A program made the translations under genes and the position numbers. The notes below the pieces were generated by a model. The model was given only the letters and a program-made list of their open reading frames with translations, made no database searches and had not been told where the DNA came from. Of a stretch of 64,000 nt of DNA, positions 1 to 59,403 are shown in pieces (position 1 is the first letter of the stretch; each line of letters begins with the position of its first letter). This DNA is from Cyanidioschyzon merolae (Eukaryota): assembly GCA_000091205.1 (NCBI GenBank), contig AP006494.2, one strand, 5' to 3'.

Positions 1-600
1 ACGAAAGCCTTTGGAAAGAATGCACAAAGTTCAGGTGGGCTCGTTTGCGTATGAACCTGTACTGTTGGAAGCAGCGAGCATACGCCGGCTTTTTCAATCA
101 GTTGAGCGCCCTCAAGGAGGACGGGAGCCAAAGGCTCGTAGTAGCATACGGGGCAGGTCGATGGATGACCCACAAAGGGTGTATACCAGCTCCAACGACA
201 AGAACGTACAAGGAGTGCGCACACCGTTATGTAAAAATACCTTTAGATGAGTTTCGAACATCTTCTACACACCACGAGCTGTGTTGTACACTTCAGAGGG
301 TCGCGATGGAGAAAAGCCAGCGGCTCGCTGACGGAAATGCAAATGGCAAGGAGGGCGAACCTTCGAGGACTACTCGCTTTGGTTAGTAAAACTAATGATG
401 GCAAGAAACGAATAGAGTTCGTGAATTGAGATTTTAACGCCGCCATCAGTGTAAGGAGGTGTGCAGTACTGGAAAGAAGACCCTCGGAGTTGGCGAGAGC
501 CAACTTTGCGGGGCAACCTCCCAAAATGGAGTTATACGAGATGAAGTTGAAACCAGTAGCAGGTGGCCAGTTGCGGAACGCCGGCACAGGCGTCTGCACA
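1..600 (+). mobile_element. Fanzor/TnpB-like element, copy 1. It is 5'-truncated by the window edge and decayed. It keeps the RuvC-II/zinc-finger segment, then a stop and frameshift before RuvC-III.
   Basis: ORF 45..386 contains ...SQRLVVAYGAGRW...TYKECAHRYVKIPLDEFRTSSTHHELCC. The [IV]DE[FY]xTS..CC block matches the TnpB/Fanzor motif upstream of the zinc ribbon. A downstream shifted frame reads EFVN*DFNAAISVRRC, which is the RuvC-III D-x-N-A-A-x-N-I motif. Nucleotide homology to copies at 13790-14165, 37950-38670 and 48600-48875 is clear. Confidence 0.55.
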
Positions 601-951
601 TCGATGGGTAGACAATCGGTCTACGGCAGACGGTGTGCCAAGTGCCACCATTGTACACTGGCTTTCCAGCGTTTCTCTTTTGCAAGGCGTTTGGTGGTGT
701 TTCCAGAGACGAATTGTTTACCAAAAACGTCTTCTATCGATCTTCGAAACCAACGTGCTGCTTCCTCTGTGCGGCACGGGGCGTACGCTATGCGCTTTTC
801 TGCTGATTGACAGCGGAAGCGACGAGTCCGGTTACTGCCTTGAAGACTTAGACGCTTTAGAGAGACCATCATATCGATGGTTTCAGTTTTCTGACCTCCT
901 CCTAACCACCACGCTCGGATCTCTGTTGCAACGGCACGCGCAGCAGCTCTC

Positions 952-12925: not shown

Positions 12926-13714
12926 ATGAACAGTGCGACGAGGACAAAATTCATCCTCCCGGTCAGTCGTACCACAGTATTCAAGTGGTTGAGGAACTTT
13001 GAAAGAGCGACGCATATACGGACCGCACCAAAAACCGATAGTTTTAAAGATTGCTTGTGGTCAATGGTGGCGAACCACCCGTTGATCACGTTAAGGAAAG
13101 CAAAAGCGACGATCGTAGCCACCACGCACATCTCTGATCCTAACAGCTTGTTCGTATGGTCCTGAATACAATGGGACGCAGCTGCAAAAAATGTTCTAGT
13201 TCACATACGGCCATCTTCCACCGAAATCGCAACGGCAGCGTTCATGGATCGTCGCGATCAGTATGAAGCACAGTAACGTCGGTTGTTTCTTTCATCCGAT
13301 GAGACTTTCTTCGAACGAAACCGTCGGAGTGTGTATGGGCATTCGCGGAACACGGAGACCGTTGTATGTAGAATCGAACTCGAAAAGCAAGATGACATCA
13401 CCATCTATTCTTGATGTGGTGGATTCATTTGGCGGCCTCAGTTTTGCTCCCAGTGAGGGCTCGTGCAAAGGCACCAACCACTTTGTCGAATCATTGAATA
13501 CTTTTCGCTGAGGTCTGGCGACGACCTTCTATTCGACAACGTGGATTTTCTCCAATTTCCTCGAATTCGATTTTTGCCGATGGTATCGGAGGTAGAACTG
13601 CTTTTGATTCCTCCGTACGCTCCGTGGTTGAACGCCATCGAAGGTGCGTTTTGTATCGTGAAACATTATGATAGCTTCACTAGGCGAATCGCGGAAGCGT
13701 TCAGCGCACGGTGA
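12926..13714 (+). mobile_element. Tc1/mariner-IS630-like (DDE_3-type) transposase pseudogene. It has an HTH region and a degenerate DDE domain and is frameshifted.
   Basis: An HTH-like segment reads ILPVSRTTVFKWLRNFERA. The degenerate first half of DDE_3 reads ...GIRGTRRPLYVES...KMTSPSILDVVDSFGGL...EGSCKGTNHFVESL. The catalytic second half reads LLFDNVDFLQ...LLLIPPYAPWLNAIEGAF, matching the DNAxxH...PPYSPdLNPIE signature. At least two frame changes are present. Confidence 0.5.
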
Positions 13715-13789
13715 CACGGGGGAACGTATCGTCGCTCGTGAGCAAGTGCTTATGCTTGCGGGAGGCTGCTCATCTTAGAGCCTAAGGAA

Positions 13790-14165
13790 AACCCCTCAGA
13801 AATATATTATGGGATGAGCTGGGGTCTACATGTCAGAAGGTTGAAATGGAGAGAAGCCAGCGGGAGCGCTCTAGTGACCGGAAAAGACGTTGAGCTGACA
13901 CAGCACCAAATGGTACTGAGGGCACGAGGCCGCAGCATCCTTGAAATGATTAGTTCAGTCAGAGACAACGCACGCCAGGAGTTCGTGAACCGAGACTTCA
14001 ACGCCGCCATCAATATCAGACGATGTGTGGTGTTGGAGACGGGACTCGAGGAGCTGAGAAGATCCAAATTTGTGGGGCAGCCTCTTAAGTTCGAAATCTA
14101 CAGGGAGAAAATGAACCCGATCGGAGTCGGCCGGTCGAAAACGGCTGGAAGGCGTCTCTGCATCG
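13790..14165 (+). mobile_element. Fanzor/TnpB-like element, copy 2 (3' fragment: RuvC-III region and 3' terminus).
   Basis: The sequence ...RQEFVNRDFNAAINIRRCVVLETG...FVGQPLKFEIYREKMNPIGVGRSKTAGRRL carries the RuvC-III motif. It aligns at nucleotide level to copies 1, 3 and 4 and ends in the shared 3' motif cggccggtcgaaaacggctggaaggcgtct. Confidence 0.55.
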
Positions 14166-15345
14166 ATTCATTTATGCACGCTATGGTCGCGGGACGTGTT
14201 CTTTCCACTGAACACATAAGCATTTGCGATCTTTCCGTAGCAACGGAAAACCATCCGAGAAAATGTTTATATATCGCATCGTTTAGTAACGATCAAGCCC
14301 GACGCTCACTCCGGACGGCTGTAGAACGCATGCCGTCCTCTGTTTCTACTGTTCTCAGCGGTGCTGTTCAGCAACGATGCAGCTGCATGGGCGACTCGTG
14401 CTCATCGCTCGCCCAGGGCGCGTCGGTTCCCAATGGATTCGCCTCAGTGAAGACCCGTCGTGAAACAATGGCACTCGGGTTAAACGCCACGAAACACACC
14501 GGGGGCTTAAGAGATGGAACTTGGCCATACGTGCATCCATCGGATTGCTGCACTTCCCAAGCGTATGGTGCATGGAAGCCTCCTGTGTCACATGGTGATC
14601 GCTTTCCTGGTTACCGACCGCGCTCGCGCACTGAGAGGCATCTGATTAGATCTACTGATTCCACAACATCAAGAGATTAGCAGGGTGCATTCAGGATCTT
14701 GCGACGGGGCGCTGTCCGGCGTCTGCCTTGCGACAAGCAGACCCGTACCTCGTGTCGCATGTCGCTGCGGACAGAACATGCCTTCGTCTCAAGGCAGGAT
14801 CGATGCGGTTCCCAGAGCCGCTCCATCGCCCACGCAATCCGCACGAGCGTGTGATTCGAGTCGACGAGTCGCTGCGGCTCATCGGGTCTTTCCTCGACGT
14901 CCAAATAAAAAATTGGCTTTAGTCTGGTGCGAATAAGGCACGTCTCGAGATGTACGCAGCTGCATCCGCAGGCCCGAGAATCACGATCGCGCATCCAAGC
15001 GATGTTGTATAGATACAGCGACTTTTTGTGCCATAATATCCATAAATGGGTCATTCCAGTCATGATGGATCAGCGCTCCTTGCGCGCTCGAGCGGACCTC
15101 GGCGCCTGACACGTTCGGGGCGGTAGGCGTTGCGCGCGACCCAGGCGACTCTGTTCATGCTGAAATAGATGTATATTTATAATCTAATATGTATATAAAG
15201 GACACATGATGCAGTGCACAAACCGGGCGCCGGCATCGCACCGTACCGTAACTGTGGATGCTAAGCTTACGCTATTACGGGGCGTCCAAGTCGGTACTTG
15301 GAACCTGCACGTTGGCGTCCTACGACTGGTCACAGGAACCCGCAA

Positions 15346-31900: not shown

Positions 31901-32699
31901 GACCATGAAGCCTGCCAAATCTGAGGTTGAATTTCCTTGTGAGGAGCTTTCCAATCATGAACATATACACCTGCTTTCGGTCAGTGAACCTGTCCCATTC
32001 CAATCTCACATAGGTGCATGCTGTCTGTATCTGTCTTTCATCCTATGTATACATATGATGATGTCCACATGCATGCAGTGCGCCACTGGTACTGCACGGA
32101 TCATGGCCAGATCGACTGCGGCGTGTGCGCTTGCGCGGATGCAGGTATTTTTTAGTGGACAAAACGTTTACATAGGCCAGCGTTCTCCGATTATGTGCTT
32201 TTTCCTCTCTTTTTGTGGGGGTTCAGTGCACGGTGAAGTATCCATCAAACGCCCTACCTCCAAGTTACACTACCCATACTTCTTCTCGGATTTTCAGGTC
32301 GTTTCATACGTTCTGTTTTGTGCCTAGTACCTGCCCTAATCATCCGCCTTTGCGCTTGAACCGCTGGGGCGGATAGTTCATAGAGACAGAACGGCGTTGC
32401 CGTACCACACAGAGGACGTCAGCTCGAGGCGCGCGGATGCAGGTGCCTGCGCGATCGCTCGGCAGCGCGGCGCGAATGCCGTCCGGATTGGCGCATTGCT
32501 CCGTGTGGGCTGCGGCACGCACGCACGCACGCACGCACGCTTGATTCCTGTATATCAGGCACGCATACAGGGCACGTCCTCGGGTGCAGCGTCTCGACTC
32601 GTGTTGATTGTCGAGCAAACGCTGGCTGCAGCTCTTTGGCAGAAACTTCAGTATTTCACTCAGTTCAGAGTGCTTTTGCTTCGCTCTAGACGCTGCAGG

Positions 32700-35338: not shown

Positions 35339-36722
35339 TTTTTAAAGTTTCTTTTCTGTTTCGTTCTTAAGGGCTTGCCACGAAAGTAGCAGCTTTTCTT
35401 CAACGAAACGCACTCGAGGGTGTCCGTACGGTAGAAGCCCACAGAACCCAGCAATGTTCGAGCAACTGCTGCTGCCGCCGCCACGAATATGACCGCCGCC
35501 GCCGCCGCCGCTGCTGGCGCCACTGCCACTGAGCGCCCACCGGCGCATTCTGGAATCGTCGACGTTTGATGCGCGATGCGACGATCGCAAAGCATTTCAG
35601 TGGACTATGGATCATCTTCGAAAGCGGGATACACACTGACTTACGGAAAAGCGTCCATCATGCTGCTGCACCCTATCTCCGATATCCGTTACCTGTTCCC
35701 GGGTGTACTGGTTATTCTCGCAGGTTCCACTGTGCGCCTAAGCTGTCTTGAGCACCCGCAATAGCGCCTGTGCCGTTGAAGCAAATGCATCACGGGGACA
35801 GAACGGCTTTGACCTACAACTGAGGGCGTCGGCTCAAGGCGTGGTTTGCGCGATACGGGTCCGGAGTACATAATCATGCTGGGGGCCAGCAACCTGCGCA
35901 GACTGACCTGCTGCCCGCGGCAGCGCGAAGCGATAGACTAGGAGTCCACTAGAATCAGAGCGACGCTAAGACGCAGCCTAACTGCCCCTAATCCCGGAAT
36001 AAACTGCGTTCCGGACGAGTTGTTCAGATCTCGGCACGGCACCCGCGAATGGGTGGAACATGAAGCAAGCGCCTGGCGGACTCGTCCGGCCCGCGGGACC
36101 TTCCGCCTAGGAGGCAAACTTTCGACAATATGGAAACCTTTTCCCCTGTTTTAAAGTTTACCGTAGAGGGGGAAAGAAATATGTATATACATGCTGGTGC
36201 ATCGAGAGTCTCTGTTCCTTATTCTTAATAGGGCGCTCGATACGCGCACCTGGGAGATCTGGCTGTAACGAGACACGACGCGCATCTCGCCTTTGAAGCG
36301 AAACGCGATGCTCATAGTTAGCGTGCTAGTCTATCGTACAAGATGTATTTGCGTTACAGTCGTAGCCAAGTATAGTGTCTCATCTCAGTTTTGTTTCAGC
36401 CTTCAAGTGGCTATGTTCAAGTGATCATTACGAGTTTATAACATACGCGTTCAAAGTGGGTTCTTCATCAAAACTAAAGATAGAAAGTTCTGGAAAAGGA
36501 AGTAGAGGATCCTGGAGGGTGGCTGTAGCCGGCCGCCGAAAAACAAAACGAAAAACAGTGCCGAGCAAAGAGCAACAGGTGATGACGAAGAAGCAGGAGG
36601 GTGAGCCAGACATCAGAAGCTGCCCGAGAGACGACAGTACGACGAGATGGATATGAAAGCGTTTCCTCTACGCCTAATCAAGGATTCCTACGAGCAAAAG
36701 TAGCAAGAGGCTATCAGAAACC

Positions 36723-38670
36723 GTGCCGAGTCGTACTCCAGCAATGTTTGTAACGCATCTTTTCGGACTAATGCATTTGGTTAATGGGATGGAAGAGGAC
36801 GTGACGGATATCATAGCAGTCGATATTCCGGGTGAAATTTTCAACAAGACCTTTATTCGTCACATGATGCTTGGCACCGGGGAAACGTCGAGGAGAAATG
36901 AACGAGTACACGCCTTACACGAAAATCACGCCGAATACCGCTTCAACGGTACTAGATACAGGGGCGACGCAGATATTTACCGCCACGGGACAATGAAGTA
37001 CCTCACGAATTTGAAGAACCAATTCACCATGAACATGAAAGGCTTCATGATACGCTCCATCTTTGCGCTGTACCCGGGCCTGTCTCGCAGAGGGACACAG
37101 GCCATCATCGACGGCATCGCGAACGATAGTAAGAATGAACAGAAGATCGAATTCGTCGACGATAAGACATCACACAGGAGAAAGAACGAGGCTTCTGTAA
37201 TCCGTGCGGCAATTAAAGAGCACCGTGCAGTCTTGGGCCTTGTCAACCCAGCAGAGAAGCTAAGAAATATGAAAAAAGATGATGAAAGATGTTATCCCCT
37301 AATCCTGCGCTATTTCGTGTTTCTGGAGCGAGAACTCGAACGCATGCTGGAGATGACGCTGAATGAGGAAGAAAATGAAGAGTCGCAGAAATGGAAGGCT
37401 GTCCTAATGGAGAACCGCTTCAATGTCGTTCCGTTATGCAACATCAAGTCACAATTTGTGGCTATAGACTCCAGCGTCCTTCATGGCATGATCAGGGAGA
37501 TCTGTCCGGAGTTCGATGTTAGCAGGAAGGAGAACTCCGGTGAAAACCGGGAGACGTACTGGAAGAATATCCTCGATTTCAAACGTCTCAAAACGAGTAA
37601 GCAAAAGGTATTCACTGGGTTGATCGAAACCGATGGGGTAACCATTTGTGGACACTATCGGATGTTGATGGCAGATCGTCCTGGTCCGTCTTCGATATCG
37701 CCCGTGACGAAGCATGAAATAAAGAAGAAGGTGGATCCTTCGACGCAGCAGATGCAGGAGAACGACTTTCGTTGTCGGCCTTGACCCCGGGAACACGAAT
37801 ATCGTTACAATCGCAGGACCCACGCGAGAGGAAGATGGTATCAAAGGCAAGTTGCGTCAGAAAGACATACGGCTTTGGAAGTTCTCAAGAGCTGGGTACT
37901 GCCGAGAGTTTGGGTTAATGAATCCAAGGATATAGAATGAGAAGCGGAACGCAGGAGTGAAGAAGCACCTAGAAGCGATCGGTAGCATAGCGAGCCGCGA
38001 AGCAAACTGTCAAGCTTTTCGGGATTTGATAGAAACTCAAGCTGCTCATCAGGAGAAGCAGTGGAAAGAGTATACAAAGCCCCGGTGGGTTCGTCAGCGT
38101 ATGAACTTGTACGGAGGGAGACAGCGTACATTCACCAACTCCTTCAATGATTGTACGCCCTCAAGAAGGACACGAGTCAAAGGCTCGTAGTGGCTAGCGG
38201 AGCAGGGCGCTGGGCGTCCAGAAAATGGAAGCATACCGGCTCCATCGACAAGAGCGTACAAGGAGTGCGCAGAGCGTTTTGTCACTGAATTGGTGGATGA
38301 GTTCCGAACGGCCTACGTGCATCATGAACGGGGGTTTACACTCCTGCCAGTCGAGATGGATGGTGCCAACCGAACGCTGAGGATACAGAAAAGTACGGAG
38401 AGCGGACAGAGCACAAAATGACACAGTGAGCGCGAGTTCGAGGACTCCTTGCACTGGTGAGTACAAGCGGTGGCATGGAACGCATGCAGTTTGTGGACCT
38501 GGACTTCAACGCTGGTATTGATATCAGGGGATATGAGGTGCTGGCGCGGAGACCCGAGGAGCTGACACGAGCGAACTTTGTGGGCAGCTTCTCAGGGTCG
38601 AAGCGCACAAGGAGAAACTGAAGCTTACAGCAATCGGCCGGTCGAAAAAGGCTGGGAGGCGTCTGCAGGT
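36723..38670 (+). mobile_element. Fanzor/TnpB-like element, copy 3. It is nearly full length but pseudogenised. Its 5' end may extend to about 36375.
   Basis: A 353-aa N-terminal ORF (36723..37784) is followed, in a shifted frame, by [17 protein letters not shown] (RuvC-I-like) at about 37770-37810. Then comes a stop, then ...MNLYGGRQRTF.../...SQRLVVASGAGRW.../APSTRAYKECAERFVTELVDEFRTAY (pre-zinc-finger motif with the Cys lost). VDLDFNAGIDI (RuvC-III) follows at about 38497-38530. The element ends in cggccggtcgaaaaaggctgggaggcgtct. Confidence 0.6.
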
Positions 38671-40693
38671 CGGTGTATATAAATACACGCGACAGACGTA
38701 CGGTACGAAAACACGTCGATTAATGCCTGTACGCCCGGTGTACGCATTGAGGGGGCTCTTCGTTCGTTTGACGGAACGTTCGCATTGAAAGGAATTCCCG
38801 CTTGTGCGCTTGCTATCGGCGCTCGGAGAGTTCAGCCGGGAATGCGTGCTGCAGAAGCGCGCGCAAAAAGTTCATAATGCATATAGGAACAAAACTGCCC
38901 ACAATGTGTGTTGATAAGAGGTAAACATAATAACATGGGTCATGCTGGTGAGTTCGAGACGCTTTCTCTGGGACACGGGATAGGTGATTCGCAGCGTTGC
39001 AGAGTATGGTTGTCTTGTAAGTAACAGAGTTCTTCAGTGGCTGTTGGAGCGCTGCATCCACTGCAGACTGCAATCTCACCCGATCGCCTGCTTGGGAAAG
39101 GCCGACTTGTTTCCATGTTGTTCAAATTTTCCAAAAGACTTGTGAAACGTTGTCATGTCGATTCGTCATAAAACCGGTAAAAATCAAACAGTAAGTTGGA
39201 GGTACAGGTCGCGAACCCAACGAGCTGGCACGACGTTGCAACGATGTGTAAGCACGCGTTGAGCGGTTACCTCTTGCCTCTACGGTTTTTTGGCAATGAT
39301 TTCCGGTGCAATGGTCAACGAGTGCTCGTTCCATGTAAACATTGCTTATCCTGCCTGGTGGATAGCAACATCATGAAGCCAGCATATTCTAGGTGCAGGC
39401 GCGGGTACCTGCCGAAAAATGACGCTAGAGTCAGATGAGTGTCCCTAGGTGTCAATGCAGCAGGCCGCTAAAGCATTTCGTTTCGCTTGGTCTTCGAGAA
39501 AGAGACGCAGGGCATGTCCATCTGCATGACCAGCGGTTGCAATTGCATGCACCGGAGGTTGCATCCACAGGTCAATACTCAAATCCAGGAGCAGCAGCTT
39601 CCGAATGGTGGATGAAAAACGCCAAAGTCAATGCCAGAGACGCGCTGAAAACCGTGTTGATGGACGGGATGTGTACACGTGATCTCAGATCTCGATCAGG
39701 TTCCACGAAATGCTCCGTTCCTGTTTTTGTGTCGATTTCGCCCCAAAACCTGCATCCGAACCATGTATACAGTGCACAGAATGAGGGCAATCATGTTTAG
39801 CTGCTGCGCGTAACGTCCAAACCGCTGCCCAAGATGCCTGTGAAAACTGCTTCACGCTAGTTTTTCGTTCCCTGGCGCCGCAGTTAACGAGCCAGACGGT
39901 AGAATACTCGAGTTCCACGAGTGGTTGAACCAATGCGCCTGCCCTGGCGTTTGCGATCGACCAGTATCCCTCGGGAATGCGCTTCAGGCGGCTTAAGTTC
40001 GCTCCTTTTCACTTGCACATCCTCGCATTTCGTTGCGATCGGTTGCGTCGAGTTGTGAGCACATTTGCCGAATATAATCCGTACTGCGTCTGCAGCTTGT
40101 GCATTTGCTACCTGCTCGTCCAATGTCACCACAGTAGCCAGGTTCCGTGCGGTCGCGTCGGAGAATCTCCAGCTCGCTGGACGGACAGAAAGCCCGGCGC
40201 CGCTCTCTCTCGTAGTTTGTTCCTCATCTCGCCATCTTTTCAATACGTTTCAGCGGCAAATGTACGGCATAGATGAGGCATCACACGACAACAGTCTCAA
40301 AGTTTGAATCAACGGTACGCTTTAAAGATGTAGAGCACGATGTGTTCAAGATTTATCAGCTTTCGTCGACCGCATTTGTTTCAATTCATGTATCACATTG
40401 CGGAAAACAAGTCGTTTTCGTTTTTAAAAGAATTCAGAGCGGCAAGCAGCCTCGAAAGTGCCAGGGTCTGGCGCCGCCTTCTCCGCTGCTGAGTAAGCAA
40501 GAGCGTTTGCACCTGTCATCACGCTCCAGAACGAACACTTACGTGTCAGGCGTGCCTTTCGGTCTCGCGACGGCATCTTGACCTTTCTCGCGTACTTTGA
40601 TCATCAAGCGCTTCGGAGGCGGTCAGCGCGCTTTCATAGGGCACGGCCGTACGCAGGTTCATGAGTCGGGCGACGTGGAGACCAACCCGCATC

Positions 40694-48599: not shown

Positions 48600-48875
48600 G
48601 AGATGATGACGAGATTGTAGTGGCATATATGGCACGAGTATTAGGAATTTTTGCACCTGTGAATTCAGTCAGCGTCAATGCACGCATGGAGTTTGTGACC
48701 CGACACTTCAACGATGCTATTGGTATCAGACGATGTATGGTGCTAAAGACGAGACCCTAGGACCTGCCACGATCCATCTTTGTGGGGCAGCCTCTCAGGC
48801 TCGTAGTGTGTGAGCAGAAACTGAAACGGATTGCAGGCGGTCTGTCATAAAAAGGCTGGGTGGCGTCTGTGAGTG
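48600..48875 (+). mobile_element. Fanzor/TnpB-like element, copy 4. It is a short 3' fragment in which the RuvC-III catalytic Asp is lost.
   Basis: MEFVTRHFNDAIGIRRCMVLKTRP...FVGQPLRLVV... aligns to copies 2 and 3 (EFVNRDFNAAINIRRC / FVGQPLKF). It ends in ggctgggtggcgtctg. The start coordinate is approximate. Confidence 0.4.
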
Positions 48876-49690
48876 GGTATGTTTATTCACTTTGTGTTCG
48901 TGGAAATGTTTCCGTTTCACTGACTGTCTTGGACCAGACATCATCCTGGGTGCTCGCATTGCGCTTCGAAAGGCCATATGACGTGATGGGGTCACGGCAC
49001 CGCGGAGCACTGGCACGTCCACTTGACGACCGCCACTTCGGACGGTGCGCCCTGACTCGGCCTCCACAGAGAGGCACCCCGGTGCTGCCGCATCGCCCTG
49101 CATCCACAACGGCGGCATGCAGATCGCCCCAGCCAGCGTCGCTGTGTGTGGATCGTCGCGCATGCTCGGATCGCGCGATCCGCTCGCCTTCAATGCGACA
49201 GGTGCTCCAACGCTTTGCCACGTGTCCGTTGCTGAATGCGTGCAGTCGCGATCGCCGTCACGCACGCACGCATGCACACACGCGGGCGTATGGCGGTATT
49301 GAGGCGTTTGCATTGGCGGGCGCTCTTTCTGGCACTGCAGCCGGGTCCAGCGACAGGCACGTGGCTCAGGGAGCAAGTAGTAACGCCTCACCAGCATCGA
49401 GCTTGCGACGTGCAGGAGTGTACGCGGTGCATCGATGGAGACACGCCTACGGACACGTGTGCGACATTGGACTCTGGCAGTGAGCTGGCCTAGTCAGAAT
49501 GCACTGACGGAGAGATGCAAATGCACACCTATAAAGCATGGATTTCGGCGAGCAACCAGGAGCATTTACAGTACACCACCCGAAAGATCCATGCAAGCAA
49601 ACATTTCGCAGATACTCTGGGCGGCAACCAGGAAAACTGGACGTACACACATCCAGATCATACACACAGACCTGCGTCCCGCCCAAGGCC

Positions 49691-52000: not shown

Positions 52001-54610
52001 GCAACGCAACGTACTCGGTCCACAAACAGCCGCAGTCAGCGACGAATGAGCGGCTCGCTCAGTAGCTCGCAACTGCAGCTCCAGCACGAGTACGCAACGG
52101 ATCGCAGACAGCCGCCACGAGGCCGCAGCGCTACGCACAGCGCGCGACGCACCGTCAAGCGCTATCCTGCGCTGGCGGCCGTCGCCGCAGCAACGCAGGC
52201 GGATCGAATGCGCACGGGTATATATATGAATATGGAACCTCAATCATCACTTGCGTTCAAACCATAGCTGGAAACACCGCGTCCCATCTCGAATCGCGAA
52301 GTTAAGCAGCATTGGGCTCTCTGAGTACTGTGATGAGGGATCGCACGGGAAACGGGAGTGACGCTAGTTCGCTTTTGCCACCACGTCGCGCTGACCTGTT
52401 CTAAAGCGCGCAGCAGCAGACGCGAGCCGGGTAGTCTGGCGGGGAAGCACTGTGAGGCCGGCTTGCTCCGGAATACACTTGCAACCGGTGGTCCAGATCG
52501 ACGACGATAACGAGTGGGTAACTGCGGAGGCCTGGTTGCATAGAGCGATCTTGCAGCGCTACGGACCGCAACACCTGCCGATATTCTGGAGGAGGTGCGA
52601 TCGCCCCCGCACGACGAACCCCGTAGCACCCAGAGGGAGTACGCACCCGCGCTACACCATGAATGCTAAAAAGGGCGGCAGGGCAGGGGCTGTCGCCCCG
52701 AACGCGTATTGCAGACAAACTAGCGCGTCACGTTCCGGTGCGTCACATGCACGCAAACTCGGGTGCCGTACGTATTCATGGTGCTCGACACGCATTCTTC
52801 CCTATGGTAGTGTCAGATTGGAATGAAACACTGAATTGGTCGTTCGGTTTCTGCCTTTCCACTTTTGGATTCGATATATAGCTTCGACATTCCAAGCGCA
52901 GGAATGCTTGCGTACTGATTTACACGGCTTTCCTGGAGTCTGGGTCGTCTTTTCAAAACGACTTGTTCGATCCCTCTCTCTATTGTTCGTTACGGAAGCT
53001 ATATCAAGATGCTTCGCCACGCTACGGACAAAGGGCTCCTAAAATAATCGTTTTCATTATCCATTCCGTGCGTCCATGGCTCCGCTGCTCTCCATGCTTT
53101 ACTTGTAGCAAGCCCAAATCCCGAACTCTTTTACGTTGCGATCTTTCCGTATCTCGTCAACTTGTGCGCGTAGCAATTCTTACCGTTGGATCGATGAGAA
53201 AGGGCCATAAAAGTAATACCCCGACACATTGTTCACGAAATCATGTCGAAACCTCACGGAACCTCACACGTCAATAGTTGATTTCGTTCGGGCGAGGAAT
53301 CGTCCTTTCTTTCCGGTCATCGATGAAATTGTATACAACAACCGTGTGATACCTCTCAAGGGATACGCTTCCGGTGACTTCTGTTTCTTATTTTTGCATG
53401 GAAATGGGTATTGGCCTCGGGCTCTTGTCCTTGCAACGATCGCTTCCAACGGCGAGACGTCTCTGCTTTGCGCGGAAGGAGTGTCGACGAATCGAAATTT
53501 CCCGGTCTCCTATCCGGCCTAGATCCTCCATCTGGTACTTGTTTCATCATGAACAGAATCGAGTTCCACAAACCCTCTGTAGAATCGAATAGCGTGCGTT
53601 TGGTCGTACAGCGAATATAACAATCGTCTTGGAGGATCGCTCAGAAGAAGCCGATGATCTTCGGGTACGAGACCTGGCCTGGAAACAGAGAATCGCATGG
53701 TGCAGAGCCTCTGGTGCCCGTCGAAGGCATCTACCGAGCGGTAAAGCAAGCGTTCACCCGCCACAGGGCAGCGTCCTGAGGCGAAGGATCGGTAGACAGA
53801 TGGGAACACTCGACAACAGCCACGAATCACTCTTCCACAGGACACATCGAGTCTGGATTAAAAGAGCGTGTAAACGCCAAGTGATCCGTAGATCGCACCT
53901 TTTGCGTGCACATGAAATGCCTTGACAAAGACCTTAAACAGCGAAAACGGGACCCCAAAGCTGCCATCAACAACCCTCGGCCGCTGACAACAGAGCTGGC
54001 GGAAGAGGAGAGACCAGCGTATTAAAAGCCGAGGCCAAGAGGGAGGAAAAGGAAGCAGCTGCATGAAAAGCTCGCAATGGCTGGCATTGATGAAAGCGGG
54101 AAAGGACCCAAACCTGCCAGTGTACACCCGAGTTAGGTTTTTGAACCCGTTCTATTGTGGTCTGAGATGGGTGTATAAACGGACCCAGAGAGTGCGAAAC
54201 CTCCACTTTAAGATTTCATACAATTCATTAACATGTCCCTGGGGAATTAGGGCTTTTACAAAAAATGACTCGGCCTGTGCAGCGCAGTCTGCAGAGTATA
54301 AAGTAACATCCTCCGCTCTTTCAGAATCGTAGTTGACCAGGCTAGCTCGCAATGAGCAACGTTTTTGCTACAACCTACTCCATAACGTGAGCAAGAACGC
54401 GCACTTCCTGGTTGGCTCCATCAATTCCCGGGAAACATCGCTATAAGGTGCGGGTACCTGTTGGCGAAAGCAAAATCTCTTGCCCTTGCACCCCAAGCAG
54501 CTCTGAAGCTTCAGGATCGCACTAGAGTTGGCGGATCTCGTCTGCGCGCAAGCCGCGGCCGAAAAGATTTGCCCAACACCGTAACACAGAGCTAAACTAT
54601 CCAGCAAACA

Positions 54611-56571: not shown

Positions 56572-59403
56572 CAGAGTCCTTCGCGCTTCTGACACGGAAT
56601 TTCTTCGATAAGTCGGTCTCTACGTTCATCAGCCCTGAATCCATCCGCTCCTCCTCAGCTCGTGCACGGATGAGAGCGGAAAGATGAGATTCAGGCCATG
56701 GGGGTCGCGCAATGGAGACGGTAACGAAAAGGTACTCAATGAGTAGTAGACAGACATACTGAAAAGGAATCTCGGTCAAATCATCAGTATGATGCGTCAG
56801 AATCCTGAGGGAAAATGGAATGGCGTATAGCGGCCATCTTCATGCAATCCTAGACCGTACACGAGAAGGAGAAGAGACCGCCGGACGTAGAAAAGAAAGA
56901 TCCTTCCAAAGGAAACGTGCATGTACAGTAAGTAGAACGAGTCGGAGCAGAAATACCAGTCTGGAAACTTGTCAAAGCGCTCCTAGTAAAACACGTCAAC
57001 GGGGCCAAGGTCTCAGAAACGCAACATGCAGGGCGTCATTGGGGATTGCGTCGATCCGTACTCGAGAAAGCCTCGCCTAGCTTACCTCGCCTTTAAACAG
57101 CTCGTTAAGAAACTGTTCGCACGAGTTCTGGACACAGGGCTGCCAGCTGTCCATATTACTATAAGATTTTTCAATCGAACCTTTCGCGCGACAACATAAC
57201 TGTGTCCCCGGGCATAAGATGCAGTAAGACGAGAGTGTATACTCAGTGAAGAGCACGAACGCTTTCCAATAGATTTTGACACGTCGCCGCACGACGTCGA
57301 CGACGGGAACATCGAGACAGCGCCGGCGCCAGGGAGTATCAAACGAACCGCCAAAACGAAAACCGTATGCGGGTCGCTGTCGAGCGCCTCATGATGCGCA
57401 ACCTGTGAATGAAGTACCCATACCTCACTGAACCAGAAAGATGGTGACTGATCCAACGCATTCTTCGGGCGTCTATGGAGGCAAATGACGAATAGGGCTT
57501 CGCGGGAGTGCATGCGTTGTTACCGAGTTCAGAAGCAACAGTTCCACGAAAACGAGGCTCTCTTCATATGGTCCAAGCTCAGGATGTTACCCTCGGCCTC
57601 GGAGCAATGCACGTCGTATTCAACGGATGGACGATACACGATGTCTTCTTTGCATGTATACTTCGCTACATGGTTTTCATGAACGCAGCCCTGCAGTGCA
57701 AAGCAGACTTCCTCATGGAACCCGAATGCCCCGCCCGTCTCGAGCTGCTTTTCGACATGGTCCCTGTACGTGGCATCAGGACCATTAGATAACCGTGGGC
57801 GCTTCTGTTCGGTACCAAATGGCGTCCTCAGTGAGCCGTGGCTGGTGCCTGTGAGCAAATACGAGCACTCAGCCGGTGTCAAGAAGAGCACACAGGGTGC
57901 TCGTTCAATTTTTCTGGTTTACAGGAAGGGAACACAGAGAGGTTTACAGGTTCTATGGAGACCGATGGAATATCGATCTGCATGCAATTTTGTAGAACTA
58001 TGCCCGAATCGAGCAACGAGATGCATTCTTATCCGTTTACAGTAGTTGAAAAGAGAGGCATGTAACGGGCGGAAATCTCGAATAGAAGAAATCCATGGCC
58101 GTCGTCAAAGCTTTGAATCACAAGGCTAGTGCCTGCTGCCTAAGCATAAAGCTGATGAAGCTGCTCAACTTTCCCCGAGCTGGATAGCAACAAGAACCAG
58201 GCATGATGGACTTCAGAAGGGATATCAGCGAATGAAATGTCTGGGCCAGGACGCAGCTCGACTTTCGGAGCACCGCATCAGTCGGGGAGAGATACTTTGT
58301 ACGCTTCGTTCAGAGAGAAAATGAGCGCCTGACTGGCACACAGAAACGATCTTTGATGGGCGTGCATGAGACTGCGCTGAGGTTGCAAACGGTCTCGGAT
58401 GTACAAATGCAATAAGCGTGCATTCGACAACTTGTTTGGTCAGTTGGAGACGGAAATGACCGATAAGCTGCGTCGTTTGATGGTAGCCTATGGCGCTAGA
58501 CGTGCTGTAGCGTGCGGTCGCTGTATTCCGGCGACCCCGCGACGGAAGCATACAGCGAGTGCAGGAATCGATGCTGTAGGATTCCCATCAATGCGTTGAC
58601 GGCGACATTCATGCACCACGAGCACAGGTGCACGTCGGAAAATGCCAGAGAAAAGGAAACTGCAATACAGAGCGACGCGCTAGATGGTTTCCAGAAAGCT
58701 AAGCAAAAGTCATATGGCAAGGAATAGGAAAGCGAATGGCTTGCTATGTTGTAAATCAACCTGTAACCATGCGCGCAAGAACTTTTTGCAACCAGACTCG
58801 CATGCCCTGATCAGCAACCGGTAATGTATCGTGCTTCCCAAGCGTCCAGCGGCTTTGAGTCAAGCGATTTCTCGAGAAAATGGTTTCGTACTCAGCGTAC
58901 GCATTGTGCTGAAACACTGAAGGTATCTAACCAAAAAAACCAGTTGCCAGGAGAGGAACGGAGAAAGACTTGCCTCGGGTAGTGCAGTGGTAGCGCACGG
59001 CCGGGCGATCCACCAATGCTAGAGCACCTTCTATACACAACAGCAACGATTTCTCTGGGCAATTCCTGAGCAATAATGGTGTTCCATCATTCAATACCAC
59101 TGAACGTCAACTCCTGCCACAGGCAGACCTTACTTCGAGCCATCGTGCGCCAGGTTCTATGTCGGACGAGTGCCACCTGCCCGTTTTCCAAACATTAGAT
59201 GTCACACAGAGCTGGTGCCTTGAAACCTTTTGCCAATATCCTAGGACCAAGACTTACAGGCATACGCTCGCGTCTTCCGCCAGCGACGACTGAAGGACGC
59301 GTTGCTGCATTGTGCTGCGGCAACTCGGGTTACTCCGTGAAACCAACGGTTACTCATCGAATCCCTGTCAAGTAGGTTCCACAAAAGCGATCAGCTGACG
59401 AGC

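What the first reader, a model, noticed from the sequence alone, without database searches (positions are those of the whole stretch)
36375..38670. Near full-length, pseudogenised Fanzor/TnpB-like element (eukaryotic RNA-guided nuclease)
The three hallmark RuvC motifs of TnpB/Fanzor appear in the canonical order on one strand but are spread over at least three reading frames. [15 protein letters not shown] (RuvC-I, GxDxG) comes first. The RuvC-II-region segment with the [IV]DE[FY]xTS pre-zinc-finger motif follows, and then D-F-N-A-G-I-D-I (RuvC-III). A 353-aa N-terminal ORF (36723..37784) precedes them, and a Lys/Arg-rich, NLS-like ORF lies further upstream (36375..36656). This is the architecture of a Fanzor1-type protein of about 650-700 aa. 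Internal stops and frameshifts are present and the zinc-finger cysteines are lost, so this copy is dead. It still defines a family whose intact members would be programmable OMEGA nucleases in this host. It is the most complete of four copies in the window.
Basis: partly seen in the sequence, partly recalled or inferred. Interest (0 to 1): 0.7.

Follow-up and report, generated by a model that had tools for sequence, protein, structure and literature searches.

The report
Dead Fanzor1 transposon copy, red alga

Summary
All three RuvC-type motifs, the 353-aa ORF and the Lys/Arg-rich N-terminus are present on the + strand. The coding sequence is broken by at least 7 frameshifts and 3 stop codons.

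The interpretation also holds. The window copy is 50-58% identical to near-intact relatives from hot-spring metagenomes. A 112-member family profile hits solved Fanzor1 proteins (Parasitella E=2.4e-17, Spizellomyces E=2.2e-11). An AlphaFold model of a relative has Fanzor1 structures as its seven best matches in the PDB.

Seven proteins encoded in the window are identical to annotated C. merolae 10D proteins. Bao and Jurka (2013) described the Fanzor1 family CMe-1A in this genome: about 150 copies, about 3 kb, no terminal inverted repeats, and a 5' 635-bp part shared with a second element. The anatomy here fits that description.

Two corrections apply. No family member has a canonical C4 zinc finger, so its absence is not decay. 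The window also holds a fifth, deeply diverged copy.

Between strains the open 353-aa ORF shows 7 nonsynonymous and 3 synonymous changes, so it is not a domesticated gene.

Verdict: already known, low interest.

The parts
35570..36232 (+). 5' module of the long form of the element. It is about 600-660 bp and non-coding. It is probably the part that Bao and Jurka report as 95% identical to the separate element TE-N2_CMe. The left edge is uncertain, between 35570 and 35645.
   Evidence: About 35 of 82 related loci share homology from about 35640-35790 onward. The others start at 36221-36249. The module also occurs alone and in either orientation, for example L014 9811-9235 and L042 8658-9275. 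The family's left boundary at L067 3012-3031 projects to window position about 35570.
36233..36446 (+). Leader upstream of the ORF start, shared by the short and long forms of the element.
   Evidence: DNA homology of the short-form copies begins at 36221-36249. The family N-terminus (P0009, MVDAFEPRSF...) aligns from 36447, and no ATG is left at that position.
36447..36595 (+). Fanzor1 pseudogene, N-terminal Lys/Arg-rich (NLS-like) segment. Start coordinate mod 3 = 0.
   Evidence: tblastn with P0009 residues 4 onward. Peptides AFKVGSSSKLKIE and GRRKTKRKTVPSKEQQ.
36605..36742 (+). N-terminal helix segment in a different frame (mod 3 = 2). In-frame stop at 36698-36700.
   Evidence: tblastn with P0002 residues 24-68 matches 36626-36760. 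Peptides ARHQKLPERRQYDEMDMKAF and YEQK*QEAIRNRAESYSS.
36762..37769 (+). N-terminal half of the protein, the Pfam DUF8286 region, including the FTGLIETDG hairpin motif at 37611-37658. It is still open as part of the 353-aa ORF 36723-37784.
   Evidence: 58% identity to P0002 residues 70-404, E=1.75e-120. The JGI gene calls of this ORF carry PF26935.
37768..38150 (+). RuvC-I segment (mod 3 = 1). Catalytic Asp codon at 37783-37785 in GLDPG. In-frame stop at 37933-37935.
   Evidence: tblastn with P0002 residues 471-680, E=1.3e-62. The profile alignment places DPG on the RuvC-I strand of SpuFz and PpFz.
38151..38213 (+). QRLVVASGAGRW, the canonical RuvC-II position. As in all Fanzors it has no Glu. 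Frame mod 3 = 0.
   Evidence: Family consensus is VxAYGSAKF. Loss of the canonical Glu in Fanzors is described in PMC10530073.
38227..38373 (+). Segment holding the relocated RuvC-II Glu, in VDEFRTA (codon 38299-38301), followed by the degenerate zinc-finger region VHHERGF. Frame mod 3 = 1.
   Evidence: In relatives this Glu lies about 37 residues after the AYG position, compared with 'approximately 45 residues' in PMC10530073.
38358..38585 (+). RuvC-III segment (mod 3 = 0). Contains RVRGLLALVS and FVDLDFNAGIDI, with the Asp codon at 38502-38504. In-frame stop at 38427-38429.
   Evidence: tblastn with P0002 residues 607-752. nhmmer with the family 3' model matches 38463-38674, E=2.2e-32.
38582..38689 (+). 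C-terminal Lys/Arg-rich tail, GQLLRVEAHKEKLKLTAIGRSKKAGRRLQV (mod 3 = 2).
   Evidence: tblastn with P0014 residues 487-536. The family consensus tail is GRSKKTGRRLHVSWRRFV followed by a stop.
38690..38780 (+). Decayed 3' non-coding end. Recognisable DNA homology stops at 38674. A possible remnant of the family's terminal hairpin, CGTTCGTTTGACGGAACG, ends near 38780. The right edge is uncertain.
   Evidence: Alignments stop at 38671-38679 in 56 loci. The nhmmer match ends at model position 217 of 296. Sequence read.
3..693 (+). Copy 1. It holds the 3' third of an element and is cut by the start of the window. It is the only copy in the window that keeps the family's complete 3' end (...GCAAGGCGTTTG).
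   Evidence: tblastn gives 70-72% identity to P0002 residues 574-752. nhmmer matches model positions 2-295, E=2.4e-59.
13757..14235 (+). Copy 2. A 3'-terminal fragment with an intact EFVNRDFNAAINIRRC motif, lying inside a 288-aa ORF.
   Evidence: (E=1.1e-33).
48632..48890 (+). Copy 4. A short 3'-terminal fragment.
   Evidence: E=3.4e-25.

Best explanation
The region is one old, dead insertion of about 3.1 kb. It belongs to the Fanzor1-encoding transposable element family of Cyanidioschyzon merolae, which Bao and Jurka (2013) published as CMe-1A. It sits in the intergenic space upstream of the DnaJ gene on a C. merolae 10D chromosome.

An intact element has three parts:
- An optional 5' module of about 0.6 kb that also moves on its own.
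- One intron-less ORF of about 640-820 codons.
- A short 3' end of about 75 nt carrying small hairpins.

The ORF encodes these features in order: a Lys/Arg-rich N-terminus, the helical and WED-like half (DUF8286), a disordered repeat linker, and a split RuvC nuclease. The RuvC has Asp in DPG, a relocated Glu in VDEFRTS and Asp in NRDFNAA. The ORF ends in a Lys/Arg-rich tail.

By homology with solved Fanzor1 complexes, an intact protein would bind a guide RNA transcribed from the 3' end of its own element. It would then cut matching DNA next to a short motif, which helps the element persist or spread. That step is inferred, not shown here.

This copy can do none of that. Its start codon is gone, at least 7 frameshifts and 3 stops break the ORF, its 3' end has decayed, and it accumulates substitutions at the neutral rate.
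For: Host: seven window proteins are identical to C. merolae 10D entries BAM80657-BAM80671, on an 859,119-bp record.

Family:
- There are 56 close and more than 160 distant homologues.
- 2397 representative clusters match at E<=1e-3.
- The family profile hits PDB Fanzor1 at 2.4e-17 and 2.2e-11.
- The AlphaFold2 model has pLDDT 83.4 and pTM 0.81.
- Its seven best Foldseek matches are all Fanzor1. Cas12 and TnpB follow only at E>=4e-3.

Anatomy versus the published description:
- The element is about 3 kb.
- The 5' module is separable.
- No inverted-repeat ends came up in the end alignments. No dedicated inverted-repeat search was run.
- No transposase gene lies next to relatives, only host genes.

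Decay:
- Frame map and stops.
- The same truncated 346/353-aa ORF is present in 31 near-identical metagenome variants.
- Between strains the ORF has 7 nonsynonymous and 3 synonymous differences. Divergence is 0.96%, against 0.08% in the neighbouring DnaJ.

Age: identity to other copies is 68-79%. A related species whose DnaJ is 89.7% identical has an intergenic spacer of 2.26 kb instead of 5.36 kb and no Fanzor homology.
Against: - I could not compare the sequence with the Repbase consensus of CMe-1A or TE-N2_CMe. The assignment to that named family therefore rests on host identity, copy structure and length.
- The local Pfam copy gives no significant hit.
- A profile of only the nine closest relatives did not reach the PDB Fanzor entries.
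- The canonical C4 zinc finger of the published Fanzor/TnpB motif is absent.
- No guide RNA is demonstrated. RNAalifold on 37 3' ends gives only -7.1 kcal/mol with almost no covariation.
Confidence: 0.93

Rival explanations
1. The open 353-aa ORF (36723-37784) is a domesticated, truncated gene that the host uses. It would encode only the N-terminal DUF8286 half.
For: The ORF is open. It is called as a gene in many metagenome assemblies, with 31 cluster members of 337-353 aa.
Against: Between two strains that are 99.33% identical overall, the ORF has 10 differences, 7 of them nonsynonymous. It diverges about 12 times faster than the adjacent DnaJ coding sequence and at the same rate as the surrounding non-coding DNA. 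The real N-terminus lies upstream in other frames and carries a stop codon.
Confidence: 0.03
2. The copy is protein-dead but still works as a non-autonomous element or guide-RNA source, served in trans by intact Fanzor1 copies elsewhere in the genome.
For: Bao and Jurka report that some CMe-1A copies are still intact. In this family internally deleted copies keep both ends, for example L041 and L042.
Against: Homology to the family's 3' end stops at 38674. That is about 80 model positions short of the end, so the conserved hairpins and terminus are not recognisable. The copy is 68-79% identical to all others.
Confidence: 0.04
3. The motifs belong to another branch of the TnpB superfamily (Fanzor2/IS607-type, or a Cas12-like gene), or they are chance resemblances.
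For: The only Pfam trace is a faint match to the Cas12f1-like TNB domain (E=0.23). Two distant relatives carry PF07282.
Against: The best sequence and fold matches are all Fanzor1. TnpB and Cas12 structures score 11 or more orders of magnitude worse. tblastn E-values are as low as 1e-120. No serine recombinase lies next to relatives.
Confidence: 0.01

Closest known systems
CMe-1A, the Fanzor1 element family of Cyanidioschyzon merolae (Bao and Jurka 2013, Mob DNA 4:12, PMC3627910)
   Same: - Same host genome.
- About 3 kb long, with many old copies.
- No inverted-repeat ends came up in the end alignments, and no transposase gene lies next to relatives.
- A 5' part of about 0.6 kb that also exists as a separate repeat.
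- A few copies are still open and most are decayed.
   Different: No tested feature differs, but the Repbase consensus was not available for a direct alignment. This copy is 68-79% identical to its relatives (most of them from metagenomes), against the roughly 80% identity to consensus reported for the family, and it is one of the decayed copies.
Solved Fanzor1 ribonucleoproteins: Spizellomyces punctatus SpuFz (8gkh, 9ceu-9cez), Parasitella parasitica PpFz (9cf0-9cf3), Guillardia theta GtFz (9cer)
   Same: - Overall fold. Foldseek E ranges from 1e-15 to 4e-13, with target-normalised TM-scores up to 0.69.
- Aligned motifs: TDG hairpin, DPG, DE[FY]xTS, [RH]GLL and RD.
- The canonical RuvC-II Glu is replaced and an alternative Glu sits in DE[FY].
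   Different: - Only 12-15% identity.
- SpuFz keeps the pattern CxxC...C...C (TSSVCPRCSS...HGLLGCTNPNC). The CMe type has TSYTHHELGC-x10-C and no Cys after RGLL. The wider clade around P0056 has no Cys pairs at all.
- No guide RNA is known for the C. merolae family.
Bacterial TnpB of IS200/IS605 and IS607 (for example ISDra2 TnpB, 8h1j)
   Same: Split RuvC nuclease in the order D...E...D, carried by a mobile element. The guide is encoded at the 3' end of the element (established knowledge).
   Different: The structural match is much weaker (E=0.057). TnpB has the canonical Glu position and a C4 zinc ribbon, lacks the long helical N-terminal half, and is usually paired with a TnpA.
Pfam PF26935 (DUF8286)
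   Same: The precomputed Pfam annotation of the 353-aa ORF and of many relatives lists this family.
   Different: It is a domain of unknown function covering only the N-terminal half. It is missing from the local Pfam copy, and no paper in the library mentions it. The present data tie it to Fanzor1.

Membership tests
Fanzor1 | Significant sequence homology to experimentally characterised Fanzor1 proteins | tested here: met
   A 112-sequence family profile matches the PDB entries PpFz1 (E=2.4e-17) and SpuFz1 (E=2.2e-11). The window copy joins that family at tblastn E=1e-120. The match is to the family profile, not to the dead copy alone.
Fanzor1 | Fanzor1 fold: helical REC/WED half plus split RuvC | tested here: met
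   AlphaFold2 model of the relative P0002 has pLDDT 83.4. Its top 7 Foldseek PDB matches are all Fanzor1.
Fanzor1 | RuvC catalytic triad with the rearranged Glu: Asp in RuvC-I, no Glu at the canonical RuvC-II site, an alternative Glu about 45 residues downstream, and Asp in RuvC-III (PMC10530073) | tested here: met
   The codons are present in the window copy at 37783-85 (D), 38299-301 (E) and 38502-04 (D). The canonical site reads VVASGAG. These positions are nearly invariant in the family. The residues now lie in different reading frames.
Fanzor/TnpB motif of Bao and Jurka: D-X(125,275)-[TS][TS]-X-X-[C4 zinc finger]-X(5,50)-RD | C4 zinc finger (OrfB_Zn_ribbon) | tested here: not met
   CMe-type relatives carry THHELGC-x10-C and have no Cys after RGLL. 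The wider clade has no Cys pairs. Pfam's TNB model gives only E=0.23. The D, TS and RD elements and their spacing (about 175 aa from D to TS) are met. CMe-1 was itself one of the founding Fanzor1 entries, so the C4 finger cannot be strictly defining. I treat its absence as a variant within the family.
Fanzor1 | Guide RNA (omega/fRNA) encoded at the 3' end of the element | tested here: inconclusive
   The 3' 75 nt after the stop codon are conserved and fold into small hairpins in almost every copy. The consensus fold is weak and covariation is minimal. No RNA data are available, and Rfam finds nothing here.
Fanzor1 | RNA-guided DNA cleavage | not testable with these tools
   This needs biochemistry on an intact family member. 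The window copy cannot encode the protein.
CMe-1A (Repbase family of C. merolae) | Host is C. merolae; about 3 kb; no terminal inverted repeats; the 5' ~635 bp is shared with TE-N2_CMe; copies are multiple and old | tested here: met
   Host identity. Length about 3.0-3.2 kb and a separable 5' module of about 0.6 kb. Four to five copies lie in 64 kb. No inverted-repeat ends came up in the end alignments, and no dedicated inverted-repeat search was run. Published description.
CMe-1A (Repbase family of C. merolae) | Nucleotide identity to the Repbase consensus sequence | not testable with these tools
   The Repbase consensus is not in any accessible collection.

The most novel reading that the evidence does not exclude
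The C. merolae Fanzor1 lineage, and the larger clade around it (2397 representative clusters), may be active RNA-guided nucleases that work without the canonical C4 zinc ribbon. The CMe type keeps at most an H-H-C-C site and the wider clade has no Cys pairs. Intact copies from this alga, which on my own knowledge is thermoacidophilic, would then be naturally heat-adapted Fanzors. The guide-RNA end would be marked by the conserved terminal hairpin ...CGTTCGA-CTT-TCGAACGGCGTT. The dead copy in the window is only a pointer to that lineage.
Probability: 0.25. Interest if true: 0.4.

Novelty: already known. Interest (0 to 1): 0.12.

Why it matters
For this locus it matters little. It is a neutral fossil of a transposon family catalogued in 2013, in a fully sequenced model alga.

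The useful by-products are modest:
- Pfam's DUF8286 can be read as the N-terminal half of Fanzor1.
- This Fanzor1 lineage lacks the C4 zinc finger once called strictly conserved.
- Hot-spring metagenomes hold dozens of related copies, a few still open. These could be tested as heat-adapted RNA-guided nucleases.

Tried and rejected
- Pfam on the corrected translation and on intact relatives gave no significant hit.
- A PDB sequence search with the 9-sequence profile of close relatives found only chance matches. The 112-sequence profile was needed.
- An exact look-up of the 353-aa and 346-aa ORFs found nothing on record.
- I tried to define the insertion ends to the base from an empty site. The only relative without the element (L087/L088) is too diverged, at 78% in coding DNA with no intergenic alignment. 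The next candidate (L090) turned out to be the same species at 99.33% identity and carries the element.
- A consensus RNA structure for the 3' 300 nt was weak (-7.1 kcal/mol, covariation term -0.18).
- The two main variants of the terminal hairpin pair in registers shifted by 3 nt. A column-wise covariation count was therefore not meaningful. I found only one clean compensatory change (L021, CGA/TCG to CTA/TAG), against three uncompensated ones.
- Rfam found only the 5S rRNA in the window.
- The idea that the 353-aa ORF is a domesticated gene was rejected on the 7:3 nonsynonymous to synonymous count.
Full report
**What is there.**
- [16 protein letters not shown] at 37768-37815.
- VDEFRTA at about 38290-38310.
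- MQFVDLDFNAGIDI at 38484-38540.
- A 353-aa ORF at 36723-37784.
- A Lys/Arg-rich stretch upstream.

tblastn with relatives found later gives E=1.75e-120 and 2.4e-56 for the two halves, so this is not a chance pattern.

**Frame map.** Alignment to three relatives divides the coding sequence into eight segments. The phase is the start coordinate mod 3.

| Segment | Phase | Content |
|---|---|---|
| 36447-36595 | 0 | Lys/Arg-rich N-terminus |
| 36605-36742 | 2 | stop at 36698 |
| 36762-37769 | 0 | the open 353-aa ORF |
| 37768-38150 | 1 | RuvC-I Asp at 37783-85; stop at 37933 |
| 38151-38213 | 0 | VVASGAG |
| 38227-38373 | 1 | Glu at 38299-301 |
| 38358-38585 | 0 | stop at 38427; RuvC-III Asp at 38502-04 |
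| 38582-38689 | 2 | Lys/Arg-rich tail |

That makes at least seven frameshifts and three stops. There is no ATG where relatives start.

**Which family.** The local Pfam copy finds nothing in the corrected translation or in intact relatives. The only trace is a faint Cas12f1-like TNB match (E=0.23).

A word-indexed search with the corrected translation found 56 close relatives, all from metagenomes. Several cover 90% of the query at about 55% identity. A second search from the most distant hit found more than 160 full-length proteins of about 600 aa. An exhaustive profile search counted 2397 representative clusters at E<=1e-3.

A profile of 112 full-length members hits two solved Fanzor1 proteins, Parasitella parasitica Fanzor1 (9cf0, E=2.4e-17) and Spizellomyces punctatus Fanzor1 (8gkh, E=2.2e-11). 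The TDG, DPG, DE[FY]xTS, RGLL and RD motifs are aligned. A profile of only nine close relatives had not reached these entries.

An AlphaFold2 model of the relative P0002 (pLDDT 83.4, pTM 0.81) has SpuFz, PpFz and GtFz as its seven best PDB matches (E from 1.3e-15 to 4.4e-13). Cas12 and TnpB structures follow only at E>=4e-3.

The family shows the rearranged RuvC-II site that Jiang et al. described for Fanzors. The canonical Glu is replaced (VxAYG[SA]), and a conserved Glu sits further on, in VDEFRTS. The Fanzor1 reading is therefore supported at both sequence and fold level.

**Which organism, and is it new.** Seven ORFs in the window are identical, residue for residue, to annotated proteins of Cyanidioschyzon merolae 10D. 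They are BAM80657-BAM80671, including CYME_CML020C, on an 859,119-bp record.

Bao and Jurka (2013) listed one Fanzor1 family in this genome, CMe-1A. They describe it as follows:
- About 150 copies, each about 80% identical to the consensus.
- A consensus of about 3 kb.
- No terminal inverted repeats, and target duplications undetermined.
- The 5' 635 bp is 95% identical to a separate element, TE-N2_CMe.
- Some copies are still intact.

**Anatomy compared with that description.** The features found here fit:
- Against 82 related loci, DNA homology ends sharply at 38671-38679 on the right.
- On the left it begins either at 36221-36249 (short form) or at about 35640-35790 (long form).
- The extra module of about 0.6 kb also occurs alone and in either orientation. 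Its own left boundary projects to window position about 35570.
- Relatives are flanked by ordinary host genes, not by a transposase.

I could not align to the Repbase consensus. The family name therefore rests on host, structure and size.

**State of this copy.** Hot-spring metagenome contigs that are 99.3-99.6% identical to the window carry the same insertion and the same truncated ORF.

Comparing the window with one of these contigs, the 353-aa ORF has 10 differences, 7 of them nonsynonymous. Divergence is 0.96%, against 0.08% in the adjacent DnaJ gene and 0.83% in downstream non-coding DNA. That is neutral drift and rules out a domesticated truncated gene.

A more distant relative, with DnaJ 89.7% identical, has a spacer of 2.26 kb instead of 5.36 kb and no Fanzor homology. 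That is an empty site, but it is too diverged to give base-level ends.

The 3' end of this copy has also decayed. A nucleotide model of the family's last 300 bp matches only up to model position 217 of 296.

**The family's 3' end.** In better-preserved copies the ORF ends ...GRSKKTGRRLHVSWRRFV-TAG. About 75 nt follow: a GGCG...CGCC hairpin, then CCACTACTGTACAC, then a 9-11-bp terminal hairpin, ending ...GGCGTT. The terminal hairpin has two forms, CGTTCGA-CTT-TCGAACG or CGTTTTTC-TTTT-GAAAGACG.

Nearly every copy folds into that terminal hairpin. However, the two variants pair in shifted registers, clean compensatory changes are rare, and RNAalifold gives a weak consensus.

By analogy with other Fanzors this is where the guide RNA would lie. 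Their RNA overlaps the 3' end of the element and extends downstream of the ORF. That remains an inference for this family.

Only 9 of 78 metagenome loci keep all four motifs in one frame.

**Zinc finger.** Relatives of the CMe type carry DEFRTSYTHHELGCTLQRVEMEKCQR, which reads H-H-x4-C-x10-C, and have no Cys after RGLL. The wider clade has no Cys pairs. SpuFz keeps CxxC...C...C.

The missing C4 finger is therefore a lineage trait. The window copy has additionally lost one of the two Cys, with GC changed to GF.

**Other copies in the window.**
- 3-693: cut by the window start, with a complete 3' end.
- 13757-14235.
- 48632-48890.
- 57319-58911: a fifth copy, only 25-30% identical at protein level.

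Noticed in passing
window 13463-13714 (+), next to 13757-14235: A remnant of a DDE_3 (Tc1/mariner/IS630-type) transposase, with the peptide LLIPPYAPWLNAIEGAF. Pfam PF13358 matches at E=3.3e-5, below the gathering score. It lies directly upstream of a Fanzor C-terminal fragment whose EFVNRDFNAAINIRRC motif is intact inside a 288-aa ORF (13814-14680). This may be a nested insertion or a Mariner-type element that captured Fanzor.
   Followed up: partly
window 57319-58911 (+): A second, deeply diverged Fanzor1-like pseudogene with the peptides FTGSMETDGISICMQF, RLMVAYGARR and NGLLCCKSTC. It is only 25-30% identical to every family member found. Bao and Jurka list a single Fanzor1 family for C. merolae.
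   Followed up: partly
window 32254-32431 (+): A piece of about 180 bp of the element's 5' module, 74% identical to L067 3116-3294, sits between two host genes. The same piece is scattered on either strand in many metagenome loci.
   Followed up: no
window 52249-52369 (+): A solitary 5S rRNA gene (Rfam RF00001, 91 bits).
   Followed up: no
loci L005, L019, L050, L067, L028, L060, L027, L056 and window 690-700: In about a third of the copies the sequence just after the terminal ...GGCGTT reads TG(A/T)TGGTG. This is either the true end of a subfamily or a preferred target or flanking motif.
   Followed up: no
P0002 residues 381-470; L005 6146-6450; window 37703-37777: The linker between the TDG hairpin and RuvC-I carries 1-4 tandem repeats of about 25 aa (..KHEE.K.A...Q.VQDNDLVV..). 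It is disordered in the AlphaFold model. The window copy has one unit.
   Followed up: no
L041 4728-6300 and L042 8658-10272: An internally deleted copy that joins the 5' module directly to the last 850 bp or so of the element. It is a non-autonomous derivative that keeps both ends.
   Followed up: no
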